Sequence record: NC_101820.1
Length of the DNA: 50,768 nt
Origin: a phage
Strand: one strand, 5' to 3'
Below the pieces are notes generated by a model. The model was not told the origin of the DNA. It was given only the letters and a program-made list of their open reading frames with translations, and made no database searches. Positions 1 through 50,768 of this stretch are shown in pieces. Each line of letters begins with the position of its first letter. Within the stretch, counting starts at the first letter, position 1. The position numbers and the translations under genes are program-made.

Positions 1-3
1 ACA

Positions 4-31
4 TTGACACGCACCAAATAGCTTTTATAAT
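4..31 (+). promoter_or_regulatory. sigma70-type consensus promoter (TTGACA, 16-nt spacer, TATAAT)
   Basis: TTGACA at 4-9 and TATAAT at 26-31, directly upstream of the first plus-strand gene. Confidence 0.6.
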
Positions 32-62
32 GCGCCAACAGTCAACAACTGGAGGAAAGGAA

Positions 63-527
63 ATGGAACAGAAGACCACTAAGGACTATTGCGATTGGCT
101 TCGCGAGCTTGGTCGCCGCCTGGCTAGTGGCGATATTGAAGAGTATAAAATGTCACTAATTGACCTGGCCGGAATGTTAAGCGGTGACGACTGCTACAAG
201 ATCACGCGCAGTTCATCCTACAGCCGGACCATTATCAACCGCGTTCCAGAAGTAAGGGCCGCAGGTCGGGTAAGCATCAAGGTAGAGGAAACGGAAGATG
301 ATAAATTTTACGTTTTCCGCATGGTCCGCGAATCGAAAAGGAAAATCATCACACCCGAAGAATTGCCAGCCATCAAGGCAAGGGCGATCAAAAAGTTTGC
401 CGATCGCATACTGGCAGCAATCCCGAATATCGTTGACCTGGAAGGGGATAAACTGGCTGGGGCTTGCGAGGGCGTAAGCCGCTACCAGGATATGATCCGC
501 GAAATCATCAAAGAGGAAGAGCAATGA
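63..527 (+). CDS. hypothetical early protein (154 aa), first gene after the consensus promoter
   Basis: ATG at 63 preceded by GGAGGAAAGG; in frame with track ORF 30..527; no recognisable domain. Confidence 0.6.
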   Translation: MEQKTTKDYCDWLRELGRRLASGDIEEYKMSLIDLAGMLSGDDCYKITRSSSYSRTIINRVPEVRAAGRVSIKVEETEDDKFYVFRMVRESKRKIITPEELPAIKARAIKKFADRILAAIPNIVDLEGDKLAGACEGVSRYQDMIREIIKEEEQ

Positions 528-796
528 AAAAGGCATTAATCAGCGTTCTGGCGGCAATGGCATTCCTGACCGGATGCAAAGAAGATGGCGCGCATGTTGG
601 CAATGTGCAGATGGCTAACCCTGGTGATGACTACAGCGTAAGGGAGCTATTCACCGCTGACGGTTGCACCGTTTACCGATTCTATGACGATCGCACTGTT
701 TACTTCACCAACTGCAAGGGCACTACTAGCTGGGAAGTGTCGAAAAGCAATGGCAAAAGCACGAAGACAGAACATATGACCGTCGAGACAAAATAG
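524..796 (+). CDS. small lipoprotein (signal peptide with lipobox LTGC)
   Basis: ATG overlaps the upstream stop (ATGA); N-terminus MKKALISVLAAMAFLTGC; in frame with track ORF 464..796. Confidence 0.6.
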   Translation: MKKALISVLAAMAFLTGCKEDGAHVGNVQMANPGDDYSVRELFTADGCTVYRFYDDRTVYFTNCKGTTSWEVSKSNGKSTKTEHMTVETK

Positions 797-836
797 CACT
801 TTTTGTTAAAACTCAAAAACGATAACCAGGCATAAT
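794..836 (+). promoter_or_regulatory. conserved 19-nt motif with -10-like CATAAT at offset +37
   Basis: TAGCACTTTTTGTTAAAAC starts with the TAG stop of the upstream gene; CATAAT at 831-836. Confidence 0.5.
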
Positions 837-839
837 ACA

Positions 840-1010
840 CACATAGACGGGCGGCAAGGATTGCTGCGGGAGAGGAGCGACGCAGGGGCTTGATCGAAGT
901 GTCAGGATTCCCAACCGTGAGGCCAGAACTATCACACTCGCCACCAGGCAGAACGCTAGATAGGTCACTGAACTGAGGCTACCGACGAAGTGAAGCCCGT
1001 CACCAAAGAT
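840..1010 (+). ncRNA. candidate structured GC-rich leader or small RNA
   Basis: About 170 nt of GC-rich sequence without a convincing ORF; terminal complementarity GACGGGC...GCCCGTC. Confidence 0.2.
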
Positions 1011-1038
1011 TAAACGGTTATTTATGTGAAAGGGGTTA

Positions 1039-1221
1039 ATGATGGATAAGATCATCAAAATGAGCGAAGTCAAGCCGGGAATGATGGTTAAGTTTGCTGG
1101 CAAATATCGCCTAGTGCTGGATAACTGCCGCAAAGAGAACATTCTTACAATTCGTGTAAATGGCAAGGCGCAGCTATTCGCCCCTAACGCAGATATTGAC
1201 GTTGAAGTTAGAATTAAGTAA
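1039..1221 (+). CDS. hypothetical small protein (60 aa)
   Basis: Track ORF; GGGG-rich RBS a few nt upstream of the ATG. Confidence 0.5.
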   Translation: MMDKIIKMSEVKPGMMVKFAGKYRLVLDNCRKENILTIRVNGKAQLFAPNADIDVEVRIK

Positions 1222-1236
1222 TTAGGAGAAATCACC

Positions 1237-2130
1237 ATGTTAAAACTTGCTGACATTAAATTCCCGATCACCTTCGAATCTCGCGGCATTGGTCATTACA
1301 TTTTTACCGATGAAAAAACATGCCATAAGGTTGATATGAATAGCGACAAACTAAGCCCATCAGACATGGAGATTGAACACTTCATTGATGCGCACAATAC
1401 GCAGTACAACGCACTTAAAGACTATGGCTATGCAATGCCAGGATATACCAGCTTCCACTACAAGCCATATAAAGGCCAGGTGTTGCCAGTGCGCTCACCG
1501 GAACGCGCAGAGATTCCGATGGTCGAGATGAAAACATGCGACTATAAAAAGCTGTGGTGCTTAAGTGTTGACAATATCAAGTATCCGATCACGTTCTACA
1601 CGGTTGGTAATTCAACGATTCGATTCACATCGCGCGACAATGGCGTTTATAGCGATGGTACGAAATCAGAGTTGAAAGTTGATTTCTTTGTCAACGGTCA
1701 CAATAGATACAATCCGCACAACGAAAAAGATAAAGTGTATTACGTGGAAGATATTACAAAACACTTATTTGGAGAAACTCCATTCGGCGGCGGTAAGACG
1801 TCAATTCAAAAAATCATTGGCGATGAGATCCACAAAGCGGCTGCCGAAATGAAAGCGCCTGGAGGCTGGCGTATTGACAAGAGCGCATTTGCAAATCAAG
1901 AAATCGTAACGCAGGGCGCAATTGAAGATATGCCAGTTGCAGCCACTCTAAAAGGAGTCCGGCTTGATGACGGCACCTGGTATGAAGTAACGGCTACACC
2001 AAAGACGATCGAGATTCATGATGACGTTGTTATCCTTCTGCTTCACTACGGCGGCTATAAAAACCGGACGATTGCAGGTGAGATCAGCATTAAGCGCGGA
2101 ACGATGGTTAAGTGGAAGGTGAAGATTTGA
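1237..2130 (+). CDS. hypothetical protein (297 aa) with an internal duplicated segment
   Basis: Track ORF with RBS AGGAG; IKFPITFESRG...YIFTDEK recurs as IKYPITFYTVG...IRFTSRD. Confidence 0.7.
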   Translation: MLKLADIKFPITFESRGIGHYIFTDEKTCHKVDMNSDKLSPSDMEIEHFIDAHNTQYNALKDYGYAMPGYTSFHYKPYKGQVLPVRSPERAEIPMVEMKTCDYKKLWCLSVDNIKYPITFYTVGNSTIRFTSRDNGVYSDGTKSELKVDFFVNGHNRYNPHNEKDKVYYVEDITKHLFGETPFGGGKTSIQKIIGDEIHKAAAEMKAPGGWRIDKSAFANQEIVTQGAIEDMPVAATLKGVRLDDGTWYEVTATPKTIEIHDDVVILLLHYGGYKNRTIAGEISIKRGTMVKWKVKI

Positions 2131-2206
2131 GTTTGCTCACTGCGGCGCACGTCGCCGCATGGATCGGATTGTTTTCCTACCTGTTTAGCTTTTATTGAGG
2201 TGAGAG

Positions 2207-2359
2207 ATGGCTACCTGGATTTTGCTGATTCTTATGATTGATGGCGGCGTTGACCATATCGAAATGAATAGCCAGCAATCTTGCATTGAGGCACGAGAGC
2301 AGATCAAGAACAACAACTGGTTTTATGTGTACACTCACACGCTATGTATTAAGAAATAG
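2207..2359 (+). CDS. small hydrophobic peptide (50 aa), paralog of 3648..3809
   Basis: ATG at 2207 after GAGGTGAGAG; MATWILLILMIDGG...; its TAG stop is the first triplet of the 19-nt motif. Confidence 0.4.
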   Translation: MATWILLILMIDGGVDHIEMNSQQSCIEAREQIKNNNWFYVYTHTLCIKK

Positions 2360-2398
2360 CACTTTTTGTTAAAACTCAAATGTGGGGCCAGGTATAAT
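2357..2398 (+). promoter_or_regulatory. conserved 19-nt motif with TATAAT inside a GGCC hairpin loop
   Basis: TAGCACTTTTTGTTAAAAC at 2357; GGCCaggTATAATGGCC with TATAAT at 2393-2398. Confidence 0.5.
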
Positions 2399-2892: not shown

Positions 2893-3100
2893 GCGCGTCA
2901 AGCACAGGTTTACTGATAACCACGGCGACGCGATTGATGTATACAAGTTTGGCGATCGAGTTTTTATTGATGGCACGTTTGAAGGTGGGCGTAGGCCGGA
3001 TTTTAGGTCGATACTTACCGTTGACCAAGTGCGCAAGCTGGCAGATAAGTTAAATGATCTGGCAGATGAAATAGAATACAAGCAAATCCATTTTAATTGA
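2879..3100 (+). CDS. hypothetical protein (73 aa)
   Basis: Track ORF overlapping the previous gene by 14 nt. Confidence 0.45.
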   Translation: MKTNKRVKHRFTDNHGDAIDVYKFGDRVFIDGTFEGGRRPDFRSILTVDQVRKLADKLNDLADEIEYKQIHFN

Positions 3101-3111
3101 TAGGTTTTATA

Positions 3112-3651
3112 ATGAAAAAATACACTTTCGAACTATGGGGCAAGAAGTACGAATTAATCACCAGCAAGCCGATTGTTATCGTTGACCTGGACGGCACACT
3201 ATCGGACGGATCGCATCGTTTGCATTTGCTGCCAACTGAAAACTTGCACCTTACGGAATCGTGGAGCGAATTTAACAGGGCCGCCGCCGGAGATTCACCG
3301 ATTAAAAGCACGATCGCGGTTATTAACGGTTTGTGGGTGTCGGGATTTGCCATCGTCATCTTGACCGGACGCAGCGACGAAGTGCGCTATGAAACATGCA
3401 AATGGTTGAATGAGAACGGCGTGAAGTTTGACGAAATCATCATGCGCCGCCAGGAGGACAACCGAAAGGATACGGTTATTAAAGAAGAAGCCTTGCGCGC
3501 TATTGGCCTGGACAATATTGTTTGCGCCTTTGACGATTCTCCGAACGTTGTTAAGCACTTCCGCAGCCTGGGAATCACAACCTATCAGGTCACGGAATAC
3601 GACAAGCCACACGCTCACATACAATCTCACGGCGTGGAGTGTTTAAAATGA
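3112..3651 (+). CDS. HAD-superfamily phosphatase (possible nucleotidase)
   Basis: Motifs IVIVDLDGTLSDG, ILTGR, a conserved Lys and FDDSPNVV match HAD motifs I-IV; start refined to ATG 3112. Confidence 0.7.
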   Translation: MKKYTFELWGKKYELITSKPIVIVDLDGTLSDGSHRLHLLPTENLHLTESWSEFNRAAAGDSPIKSTIAVINGLWVSGFAIVILTGRSDEVRYETCKWLNENGVKFDEIIMRRQEDNRKDTVIKEEALRAIGLDNIVCAFDDSPNVVKHFRSLGITTYQVTEYDKPHAHIQSHGVECLK

Positions 3652-40860: not shown

Positions 40861-41118
40861 ATGAAAAAAGAGAGAAGCGTTTATTTAAATGAAACTGGCG
40901 AGTGGTTGTTATTTCGCGCTATGGTGTGCGATGCACTTGATAAAAACCCTAACGTGAAAAAGATGATTGATTGCGATCCGTGGGAATTTTCAAGCGCATT
41001 AGATATGAGCTTTGAGGATACAAGAAAACTACCTCTTGAAAAATGGCACGAACAAATAAGAAATGACATGCAAGAGTTTGTCGATTCGTGGAATTTTCAG
41101 AACGGAATGATCCACTAA
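40861..41118 (+). CDS. hypothetical protein (85 aa)
   Basis: Track ORF; its TAA stop precedes the TAG of the next motif copy. Confidence 0.5.
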   Translation: MKKERSVYLNETGEWLLFRAMVCDALDKNPNVKKMIDCDPWEFSSALDMSFEDTRKLPLEKWHEQIRNDMQEFVDSWNFQNGMIH

Positions 41119-41161
41119 TAGCACTTTTTGTTAAAACGCCCGGCATTTTGTCGGGCATAAT
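41119..41161 (+). promoter_or_regulatory. conserved 19-nt motif with GCCCG/CGGGC hairpin and CATAAT at offset +37
   Basis: TAGCACTTTTTGTTAAAAC at 41119; CATAAT at 41156-41161. Confidence 0.5.
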
Positions 41162-41193
41162 TATTTCAACGAAACAAACATGAGGAAATGAAA

Positions 41194-46541: not shown

Positions 46542-46761
46542 ATTTGATCCGCTCTATTGCAACCAGAAGTCGATCAGGCTGGCGGTCGCTGTAGCATTCT
46601 CCTGTAATCCCATCCTTAAACGTAAAGTAAAGCGCCTTATGATATGAAAAACCAATCAGCCAACCTACCGCCGTTTTTTTGATTGGCCTGACTATATCGC
46701 CAGGCTTGAAAGTCTTTGTGGCAGAATGCGTTACTTTGTAACGGTTCTCACTGTTTATCAC
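46540..46761 (-). CDS. hypothetical protein (73 aa)
   Basis: Track ORF (GTG start as listed); my manual reading of this region differs from the track by one base near 46560. Confidence 0.4.
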   Translation of the reverse strand: MINSENRYKVTHSATKTFKPGDIVRPIKKTAVGWLIGFSYHKALYFTFKDGITGECYSDRQPDRLLVAIERIK

Positions 46762-47144
46762 AGATATTTGCCCTCAAACAGATAACATCCGCCAGCAGAG
46801 AATCCGACCTCTTCACGGTACAGGTTCCAGCGGTCGCCGCACTCATCAAAAACATAACCCGCAACGCTTCCAAGCGGTCGCCCTTTCTCGATCTGGTATC
46901 GCTTGCCCTGCTTAAAGTGCTTTTTGCACGGCATGTTATGATCTACAAACGTGCAAAGAACGGTTTTTGTGTTAATGACGCGGTAATCATCTCGGTTTGC
47001 TGGAAGCCAACGGCTACCCTTAACAAGCGTCTTAACCTGGAACTCTTCCAACTCGATCACATCATTACTTCCTGCAATCTTCTGATAAACCGTTTTAAAA
47101 CGGCCTTTCATCAATACGTTGGTTTCATTACAGATAACATTCAT
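46758..47144 (-). CDS. hypothetical protein (128 aa)
   Basis: Track ORF; ATG 47144 preceded by AAAGGAG. Confidence 0.55.
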   Translation of the reverse strand: MNVICNETNVLMKGRFKTVYQKIAGSNDVIELEEFQVKTLVKGSRWLPANRDDYRVINTKTVLCTFVDHNMPCKKHFKQGKRYQIEKGRPLGSVAGYVFDECGDRWNLYREEVGFSAGGCYLFEGKYL

Positions 47145-49835: not shown

Positions 49836-50089
49836 TTTTTCTTCTCCTGCAATAAGCAAACATCATTGATAAAATCAGCACGGCCCTTAATGTTGCTGAT
49901 GTGGAACGTCTTTTCAGCGTACAGGCCATCACCTTCAATCACGATCATTACGCGAGTCGGTTTATTCACGGGCGCACACGAAAAGAGTGGTCGCGCCGGA
50001 AGAAATTTAGTGGTCACATCCAGGTTAGCCCTGGCGGCCCTGCAAAACGCCTCCGCCAGATCCAAATCATTTTCGGTAATCACCGCCAT
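49823..50089 (-). CDS. hypothetical protein (88 aa)
   Basis: Track ORF; ATGA overlap with the upstream gene. Confidence 0.5.
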   Translation of the reverse strand: MAVITENDLDLAEAFCRAARANLDVTTKFLPARPLFSCAPVNKPTRVMIVIEGDGLYAEKTFHISNIKGRADFINDVCLLQEKKKCWM

Positions 50090-50361
50090 TACTTCTTGAT
50101 CTCCTTACTGATAAATTTCAGCACCTGGCGCAAGAAAACTTCGTTGTTGATAGTCGCTGGCAATTCTTCTTTCACTTCTTGCGGCAGATAGATATTGCAG
50201 TGCCAGGTCAAGCAATCGTAGTTAATGCGATAAGAGCAAAGCCACTCGCAATCGTTATCTGCTTCCCATATGCAGAGTTGCAGAACATCGCCAAAATCTT
50301 CAACAGTCAGATCCAGACCGTGACGCTTAGCGAAATTGAAAGTGGTTTTGCTGATGTTCAT
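50089..50361 (-). CDS. hypothetical protein (90 aa), first gene of the leftward arm
   Basis: Track ORF; RBS CAGGAG; leader contains CATCGAAACGAACC. Confidence 0.55.
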   Translation of the reverse strand: MNISKTTFNFAKRHGLDLTVEDFGDVLQLCIWEADNDCEWLCSYRINYDCLTWHCNIYLPQEVKEELPATINNEVFLRQVLKFISKEIKK

Positions 50362-50418
50362 TTACTATCTCCTGAGCGGTTCGTTTCGATGTGTGTAATG
50401 TACCCGATCAGGCGGCCT

Positions 50419-50439
50419 GATTTTTAACAAAAAGTGTTA
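50419..50439 (-). promoter_or_regulatory. conserved motif variant (TAACACTTTTTGTTAAAAATC) with hairpin and TACATT
   Basis: Minus strand motif then TCAGG/CCTGA hairpin then TACATT, CATCGAAACGAACC, RBS and ATG 50361. Confidence 0.45.
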
Positions 50440-50471
50440 TTTGACGGTTAGCACCAGGATTGTGATCGAAA

Positions 50472-50559
50472 TAATCAAAAGTAATCATTCGTAATCAAAT
50501 CGCGTCAAAATGATGATTGCCTTTGCAAATTTGATGAGAAAAGCAATCACGTTTAATCA
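50472..50559. repeat. iteron-like array of TAATCA hexamers
   Basis: TAATCA at 50472, 50482 and 50492 (exact 10-bp phasing), CAATCA at 50544 and TAATCA at 50554, plus an inverted near-copy at about 50514. Confidence 0.5.
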
Positions 50560-50768
50560 TTGGTTGCAGGGGAGATAGTGAAACCTTCCCCTCTTGCCTC
50601 ACTTTTCCGCCTGGCTGTCAGTGGTTGTTGTCTTTTGTTCACCCCTGTTACCGATTTCAGGCGGCGTGTTTCCGCGCGGTTTTCCGGTGTAGCGAAAACG
50701 AAAAAAACAAAAAAATCCCTCTATAATACATTGAAAATAAAGATTATTTATTTATATATATCTATAAC

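What the first reader, a model, noticed from the sequence alone, without database searches (positions are those of the whole stretch)
63..527. First gene behind the only perfect consensus promoter: candidate early anti-restriction or host-takeover protein
The single TTGACA/TATAAT promoter match in the window (4-31) drives an uncharacterised 154-aa protein with no recognisable domain. In many phages the first injected and first transcribed gene counters host defences. This is a positional inference only.
Basis: inference. Interest (0 to 1): 0.4.

Follow-up and report, generated by a model that had tools for sequence, protein, structure and literature searches.

The report
Early T1-like phage gene, function unknown
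This is a real, strongly promoted early gene of a T1-like E. coli phage; it belongs to a catalogued but uncharacterised family (DUF7174), is swapped between near-identical phages like a cassette, and shows no sign of being a classical anti-restriction protein.

The parts
4..31 (+). Sigma-70 consensus promoter: -35 TTGACA (4-9), 16-nt spacer, -10 TATAAT (26-31). The predicted transcription start is near 38, giving a ~24-nt leader.
   Evidence: Only 12/12 match in the window; 0.03 expected by chance. Conserved at about -59 to -65 from the start codon across divergent alleles.
51..56 (+). Shine-Dalgarno sequence GGAGGA, 6-7 nt before the ATG
   Evidence: Read directly from the sequence.
63..527 (+). 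CDS of 154 aa, Pfam DUF7174 / PHROG 4841. Orthologue of SECphi27 gp26 and TLS gp01, and probably of T1 ST77.
   Evidence: AF2 model pLDDT 82.
1..512 (.). Exchangeable allele cassette (promoter plus nearly the whole gene). In relatives it also includes ~200-290 bp upstream that this window lacks.
   Evidence: Against AV105 and Bas05, identity is 96%/90% up to window 50766, undetectable across 1-512, and 98%/90% again from 513. JK16 matches only from 513. Just 44 records carry this cassette, against 265 that share the surrounding 3 kb.
524..796 (+). Downstream gene overlapping by ATGA: a 90-aa lipoprotein (signal peptide with LTGC lipobox, DUF4884). It is accessory, not a conserved partner.
   Evidence: Nearly identical in AV105 (1 aa difference) but replaced by unrelated proteins in TLS, T1, KLB26, aaroes and K50.
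793..836 (+). Next promoter-like unit: DR module ATAGCAC-N3-TTGTTA-22 nt-CATAAT
50397..50440 (-). DR module heading the divergent leftward operon, whose first gene is 50089-50361 on the - strand
50467..50560 (.). Cluster of AATCA/TGATT repeats, three of them phased at 10 bp; probable pac region
   Evidence: The T1 and TLS records, whose position 1 was set at the mapped pac end, both start inside the equivalent repeat cluster (PMC11447400).
50691..50767 (.). Conserved AT-rich non-coding element that forms the left boundary of the allele cassette
   Evidence: Identity 100% in swan01 and 95% in Phunderstruck over the full element; 93% in AV105 and 87% in Salmonella F115 over a ~45-nt core; ~89-90% over two shorter segments in Klebsiella K50.

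Best explanation
Window 63-527 encodes a DUF7174 protein. It is the pac-proximal first gene of the rightward early operon of a T1-like (Drexlerviridae, Warwickvirus) E. coli phage. Host sigma-70 RNA polymerase probably transcribes it at high level soon after DNA entry, from a promoter that selection keeps at or near consensus. The protein has no enzymatic signature. It is predicted as a two-domain binder: an alpha/beta N-terminal domain, weakly winged-helix-like, whose most conserved feature is a helix carrying Tyr53, Arg55 and Arg60, followed by a C-terminal helical hairpin. I think it most likely acts by stoichiometric binding to a host macromolecule in a host-takeover or counter-defence role. 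The signature for this is wholesale allele replacement between otherwise near-identical phages. It is not a DNA-mimic anti-restriction protein. Shown: the promoter, family membership, synteny, distribution, the cassette boundaries and the charge. Inferred: early timing, the binder mechanism and a host target.
For: The promoter is unique in the window and conserved across alleles; a 59%-identical allele has an independent 12/12 promoter with a different spacer (L014). The gene is the first or second gene after the divergent intergenic region in E. coli, Klebsiella, Salmonella and Cronobacter relatives and in all nine IMG/VR contigs found. Allele cassettes with sharp boundaries at window 50766 and 513 sit in genomes with 90-98% identical flanks, and only 44 of 265 related records share this allele. 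The family is restricted to T1-like virulent phages: 65 clusters at 50% identity among 1.84 billion representatives, nearly all ~150-190 aa, and none in plasmids or in 185,579 species genomes. The same operon in relatives carries annotated counter-defence functions (TLS stp and pnkP). The near-invariant residues are L13, G23, Y53, R55, R60, G68 and P121. The model is confident, with pLDDT 82.
Against: No experiment or homology links the family to any host target or defence system. It never appears in the SECphi27 escape and trigger studies I searched. Retention at one fixed position across a whole phage family is unusual for anti-defence genes, which tend to be sporadic. The weak fold resemblance to winged-helix DNA-binding proteins fits a phage-directed regulator equally well. 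Detectable homologues occur in only about a third of the 875 records with a related portal, although divergence beyond BLAST range probably explains part of that.
Confidence: 0.4

Rival explanations
1. It is a phage-directed DNA-binding regulator: a winged-helix protein that shuts off its own early promoter and/or switches on the DR-type promoter modules that head most other transcription units.
Confidence: 0.2
2. It is a classical anti-restriction protein, the first reader's leading idea, acting like T7 Ocr or ArdA on type I-III restriction enzymes.
For: There is a positional analogy with T7 gene 0.3: first gene behind strong host promoters near a genome end. Bas04, one of only two RM-resistant BASEL Drexlerviridae, carries this allele.
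Against: The charge is balanced and the pI is 5.75. There is no similarity to Ocr, ArdA or any other family. Most Drexlerviridae are very RM-sensitive (PMC8594841; Bas09 in PMC13250531). Bas05 is also resistant but carries an allele only 30% identical. Bas04 and Bas05 also have very few or no type I/II sites, which explains part of their resistance.
Confidence: 0.07
3. It has a cis-proximal DNA function at the genome end: an accessory factor for pac recognition or packaging initiation, end protection, or replication initiation.
For: The gene sits ~300-500 bp from the TGATT/AATCA repeat cluster where the T1 and TLS genomes begin, and next to a conserved AT-rich element. There are weak fold hits to the iteron-binding initiators RepE and RctB.
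Against: The repeat cluster and the AT-rich element are 93-100% conserved between phages whose DUF7174 alleles are only 30% identical, which does not suit a specific protein-site pair. Packaging proteins are normally late, not driven by the strongest early promoter.
Confidence: 0.1

Closest known systems
SECphi27 gp26 (YP_009965907.1), TLS gp01, T1 ST77 and other DUF7174 / PHROG 4841 members
   Same: Same family, same position and same type of promoter. The SECphi27 cassette is 98.8% identical in DNA, and tuinn and tunus are 100% identical over window 1-512.
   Different: None has been characterised. T1 ST77 is only a sub-threshold match (21 bits against a cut-off of 27) with a 37-aa N-terminal extension.
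T7 gp0.3 (Ocr)
   Same: A small protein encoded by the first gene behind strong host-type promoters near a genome end.
   Different: Ocr is a highly acidic DNA mimic at the end of the T7 genome that enters first. This protein has balanced charge and no sequence or fold similarity. It sits at the first-packaged end of a headful genome whose entry polarity is unknown, and its carriers are mostly restriction-sensitive.
Winged-helix DNA-binding proteins (CtsR, RepE, PurR N-domain, PadR/MarR types)
   Same: The predicted helix-strand-helices-beta-hairpin order, and a conserved Arg/Tyr helix just before the hairpin.
Mosaic allele cassettes, such as lambdoid immunity regions and T4-type modules bounded by promoter stem-loops (named from my own knowledge, not tested)
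   Same: Divergent alleles at a fixed locus with sharp boundaries in conserved flanking sequence.
   Different: No cognate operators were found. Here the boundaries are an AT-rich element and the last 15 nt of the gene.

Membership tests
Pfam DUF7174 (PF23796) | Whole-protein HMM score above the curated gathering threshold, with full-length coverage | tested here: met
   173.1 bits against a cut-off of 27, E=4.3e-51, residues 4-153 on profile 2-153 of 153. All 54 diverse relatives also match at E<=0.1.
Ocr/ArdA-type DNA-mimic anti-restriction proteins | Strong net negative charge that imitates the DNA backbone | tested here: not met
   29 acidic against 28 basic residues, pI 5.75; family members range from pI 5.1 to 8.5.
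Ocr/ArdA-type DNA-mimic anti-restriction proteins | Sequence or structural similarity to Ocr, ArdA or another known anti-restriction family | tested here: not met
Ocr/ArdA-type DNA-mimic anti-restriction proteins | Carriers escape restriction in vivo | tested here: inconclusive
   Literature only. Most Drexlerviridae are very RM-sensitive, and resistant Bas04 and Bas05 carry alleles only 30% identical. No mutant data exist.
Winged-helix (wHTH) DNA-binding regulators | Canonical a1-b1-a2-a3-b2-b3 topology with a significant structural match | tested here: inconclusive
Winged-helix (wHTH) DNA-binding regulators | A cognate repeated DNA site near the regulated promoter | tested here: not met
   No inverted repeat of >=8 nt lies around the promoter in most of the allele classes (TLS and T1 have one each upstream of or near theirs). 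The nearby AATCA repeats correspond to the pac region instead.
Known anti-defence families (Acr and others) | HMM match above threshold | tested here: not met
   The only hit is sub-threshold, AcrF2 in T1 ST77 (17.6 bits against 27; 1 of 54 members). PADLOC holds defence models, not anti-defence models, and gave nothing.
Phage early genes transcribed by unmodified host RNA polymerase | A conserved sigma-70 promoter directly upstream | tested here: met
   Promoters are 12/12 or 11/12 with a perfect TTGACA in most allele classes, and TTGACG-15-GATAAT in TLS. The actual timing of transcription cannot be tested with these tools.

The most novel reading that the evidence does not exclude
DUF7174 may be the immediate-early factor that lets host RNA polymerase use the DR modules of T1-like phages (ATAGCAC-N3-TTGNTA, about 22 nt often forming a hairpin, then a TATAAT-like -10). 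That would make it a MotA-like early-to-middle transcription switch for Drexlerviridae, and it might also repress its own promoter through the AAATAGC half-site in the spacer. The evidence does not exclude this, because it is the only gene at the switch region with a canonical promoter and it has a weakly winged-helix-like domain. The evidence disfavours it, because T1 keeps identical DR modules alongside a highly divergent protein.
Probability: 0.08. Interest if true: 0.65.

Novelty: already known. Interest (0 to 1): 0.3.

Why it matters
T1-like phages are among the most commonly isolated coliphages and are standard test phages for defence systems (SECphi27, BASEL Bas01-13), yet their early programme is essentially unmapped. 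The BASEL authors could not explain why sensitivity to host immunity varies so much within the family. A conserved, very strongly promoted, fast-swapping first early gene is a reasonable candidate for that unexplained variation. The experiment is easy, because SECphi27 and Bas04 carry this exact allele and SECphi27 has already been engineered. As it stands, though, this is a catalogued hypothetical protein with a positional argument, not a discovery.

Full report
WHAT THE WINDOW IS. The 50,768-bp window is a genome-sized sequence of a T1-like siphophage of E. coli (Drexlerviridae, Tempevirinae, Warwickvirus). Its first 3 kb are 97-98% identical to swan01, Phunderstruck and tuinn, among others, and 265 phage records share this region. 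In those records the same DNA lies at very different coordinates and on either strand. The window's start is therefore a record convention and not a biological landmark.

CHECKING THE OBSERVATION. TTGACA (4-9), a 16-nt spacer and TATAAT (26-31) are present. They are followed by GGAGGA (51-56), an ATG at 63 and a stop at 525-527. This is the only 12/12 promoter match in the window on either strand. Dinucleotide-preserving shuffles give 0.03 per window. The overall number of weaker promoter-like matches is no higher than chance (31 found against 32.9 expected in the first 20 kb), so only this site stands out.

Conservation shows the promoter is functional. A perfect TTGACA preceded by an A-tract, with an 11-12/12 overall match, lies about 59-65 nt upstream of the start codon in alleles that are only 30-59% identical in protein and have unrelated spacer sequences. 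These are AV105, KLB26 and IMG/VR loci L014 and L017-L021. TLS has TTGACG-15-GATAAT, and T1 and aaroes keep the perfect -35 with a weaker -10. In the K50-type phages the promoter sits in front of one extra upstream gene.

Two statements in the finding do not hold. The protein has a recognisable family: Pfam DUF7174, 173 bits against a cut-off of 27, full length, and PHROG 4841, although both are of unknown function. The "first gene" status comes from where the record was cut. The window's two ends join into one divergent intergenic region (50362-50768 plus 1-62). An alignment shows the window begins 3 nt upstream of the -35 and lacks ~200 bp that swan01, Phunderstruck, SECphi27 and AV105 have between a conserved AT-rich element and the promoter (469 nt against ~690 nt). 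I cannot tell whether this is a true deletion or an assembly truncation.

GENOMIC SETTING. The gene heads the rightward operon: small accessory genes, a polynucleotide kinase/phosphatase, a dNMP kinase, then terminase from about 8.5 kb. A leftward operon diverges from the same intergenic region. In every relative examined, and in all nine IMG/VR contigs found, the DUF7174 gene is the first or second gene after that region. The relatives are from E. coli, Klebsiella, Salmonella and Cronobacter.

The T1 reference record opens with its 2.8-kb terminal repeat, and the TLS record opens at the restriction-mapped pac end (PMC11447400). Both begin inside a cluster of TGATT/AATCA repeats. The window has the equivalent cluster at 50467-50560, with three repeats phased at 10 bp. 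It does not follow that the gene is injected first. From established knowledge of SPP1, P22 and lambda, the last-packaged end exits first, so the pac end would enter last, apart from the copy in the terminal redundancy. Entry polarity has not been determined for T1-like phages, and this step is inference.

CONTRAST WITH THE REST OF THE GENOME. The TLS paper described a 21-nt intergenic repeat of unknown role. The window has 18 copies of ATAGCACNNNTTGNTAAAA (<=2 mismatches; 0.16 expected), in most clear cases co-directional with and upstream of the downstream gene. They are part of a fixed layout. In 16 of 18 copies a TATAAT-like hexamer (>=4/6) follows 19-24 nt after TTGNTA, against 4.4 expected at random positions; 13 of those match at >=5/6, and 13 are at exactly 22 nt. 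Six contain a stable GC hairpin in that spacer, against 0.4 expected. T1 has 24 matches at <=3 mismatches. The leftward operon starts with such a module (50397-50440, - strand), and so does the unit after the lipoprotein gene (793-836). No relative has a rightward DR module in front of DUF7174. The gene is therefore the exception: it is the one unit at the switch region built for unmodified host polymerase.

THE PROTEIN. The family is small and confined. There are 14 clusters at 90% identity and 65 clusters at 50% identity among 1.84 billion representatives, nearly all ~150-190 aa (a few short fragments and one 1,662-aa repeat protein aside). tblastn finds it in 232 phage records with the window's allele, plus 59 with the T1 type, out of 875 records with a related portal. 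There are no hits in plasmids or in one genome from each of 185,579 species. T1 ST77 is a sub-threshold but collinear and syntenic match.

AlphaFold gives a confident model (pLDDT 82, pTM 0.53). It has an N-terminal alpha/beta domain (H6-22, E27-31, four short helices, hairpin E68-76/E81-89) and two long C-terminal helices. Across 54 diverse members the near-invariant residues are L13, G23, Y53, R55, R60, G68 and P121. The motif S-Y-x-R-x-I-x-x-R-V-P-E-V just before the hairpin survives in alleles only 30% identical.

THE NEW CLUE: ALLELE CASSETTES. Against AV105, which is in the same genus, DNA identity is 96% up to window 50766. It is undetectable across 1-512, which is the promoter plus the gene, and 98% again from 513. 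The encoded proteins are 30% identical. BASEL phage Bas05 shows the same boundaries, and JK16 matches only from 513. Only 44 records carry this cassette, including SECphi27 and Bas04. The left joint is a ~77-bp AT-rich element conserved even in Klebsiella and Salmonella relatives. The right joint is the last 15 nt of the gene. Replacement of a whole gene and its promoter at a fixed locus between near-identical genomes is what one expects of genes involved in host-virus or virus-virus conflict. It is harder to reconcile with a factor that reads a DNA motif identical across the family.

TESTING ANTI-RESTRICTION. The DNA-mimic mechanism is excluded by the charge and by the lack of any similarity to Ocr, ArdA or other families. 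[quoted passage not shown] Bas09 is highly sensitive to type II and III systems (PMC13250531). Bas04 has the window's allele and Bas05 the allele only 30% identical, and both have few or no type I/II sites. Presence of the family clearly does not confer restriction resistance. Allele-specific effects remain untested. The SECphi27 studies I searched identify other proteins as defence triggers (Gp57, Gp77 and a 128-aa protein) and never mention gp26.

VERDICT. The feature is real and well defined, and its context is now clear. It is a conserved, consensus-promoted, pac-proximal early gene of an uncharacterised phage-only family that is exchanged as a cassette. My best-supported explanation (0.4) is a non-enzymatic early binder of a host target in a takeover or counter-defence role. 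The rivals are a phage-directed regulator (0.2), a pac, end or replication function (0.1) and classical anti-restriction (0.07). The remaining probability is unassigned. The family and identical sequences are already catalogued, so novelty is low and function remains open. Interest is 0.3.

Noticed in passing
window, 18 sites, e.g. 793-836 (+), 2356-2398 (+), 41118-41162 (+), 47199-47155 (-), 50440-50397 (-): Phage-specific promoter-like modules: ATAGCAC-N3-TTGNTA, then about 22 nt, often a GC hairpin, then a TATAAT-like hexamer, RBS and gene. There are 18 copies against 0.16 expected, and T1 has them too. The 22-nt spacing is too long for ordinary -35/-10 use. The TLS paper reported only the 21-nt repeat and left its role open.
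   Followed up: partly
window 50467-50560: A cluster of AATCA/TGATT repeats, three phased at 10 bp. It corresponds to where the T1 and TLS genome records begin, at the mapped pac end, so it is the probable packaging initiation region.
   Followed up: partly
window 50691-50767: An AT-rich non-coding element (ctataatacattgaaaataaagattatttatttatatatatctataa) conserved at 87-100% in E. coli relatives and, over parts of its length, in Klebsiella and Salmonella relatives. It forms the left joint of the DUF7174 allele cassette. Its role is unknown.
   Followed up: partly
junction of window 50768 and 1: About 200 bp present in swan01, Phunderstruck, SECphi27 and AV105 between the AT-rich element and the promoter is absent here. 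The record starts 3 nt before the -35. This is either a real deletion or an assembly truncation.
   Followed up: partly
window 524-796 (+): A 90-aa lipoprotein (MKKALISVLAAMAFLTGC lipobox, DUF4884), translationally coupled to the DUF7174 gene. It is present in only some relatives. It may be an early superinfection-exclusion type function, distinct from the Cor locus.
   Followed up: partly
window 818-2353: A two-gene module (60 aa and 297 aa, PHROGs 8121 and 7116) that is absent from AV105 and is bounded exactly by DR modules at 793 and 2356. This suggests DR modules act as recombination joints for module exchange, as I recall for T4 promoter stem-loops.
   Followed up: partly
window 837-1038: An unusually long (~200 nt) untranslated stretch between the DR module's -10 and the next start codon; other modules have about 35 nt. 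There is no Rfam match and no significant fold (z +1.2).
   Followed up: yes
window 16-22: AAATAGC, the 5' half of the DR motif, lies in the spacer of the consensus promoter. It is also in the AV105/Bas05 allele but not in KLB26, TLS, aaroes or T1. It could be shared ancestry or a regulatory half-site.
   Followed up: no
window 3097-3651 (+) and TLS locus L002 1865-1945: The same early operon encodes a polynucleotide kinase/phosphatase. In TLS it also encodes an annotated Stp-like peptide (activator of host PrrC), so tRNA-repair counter-defence functions sit a few genes downstream.
   Followed up: no
window 46758-47144 (-): A 128-aa ORF behind a DR module. A 128-aa SECphi27 protein of unknown function was reported as the sensitivity determinant for Mokosh type I. 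I did not check whether this is its homologue.
   Followed up: no
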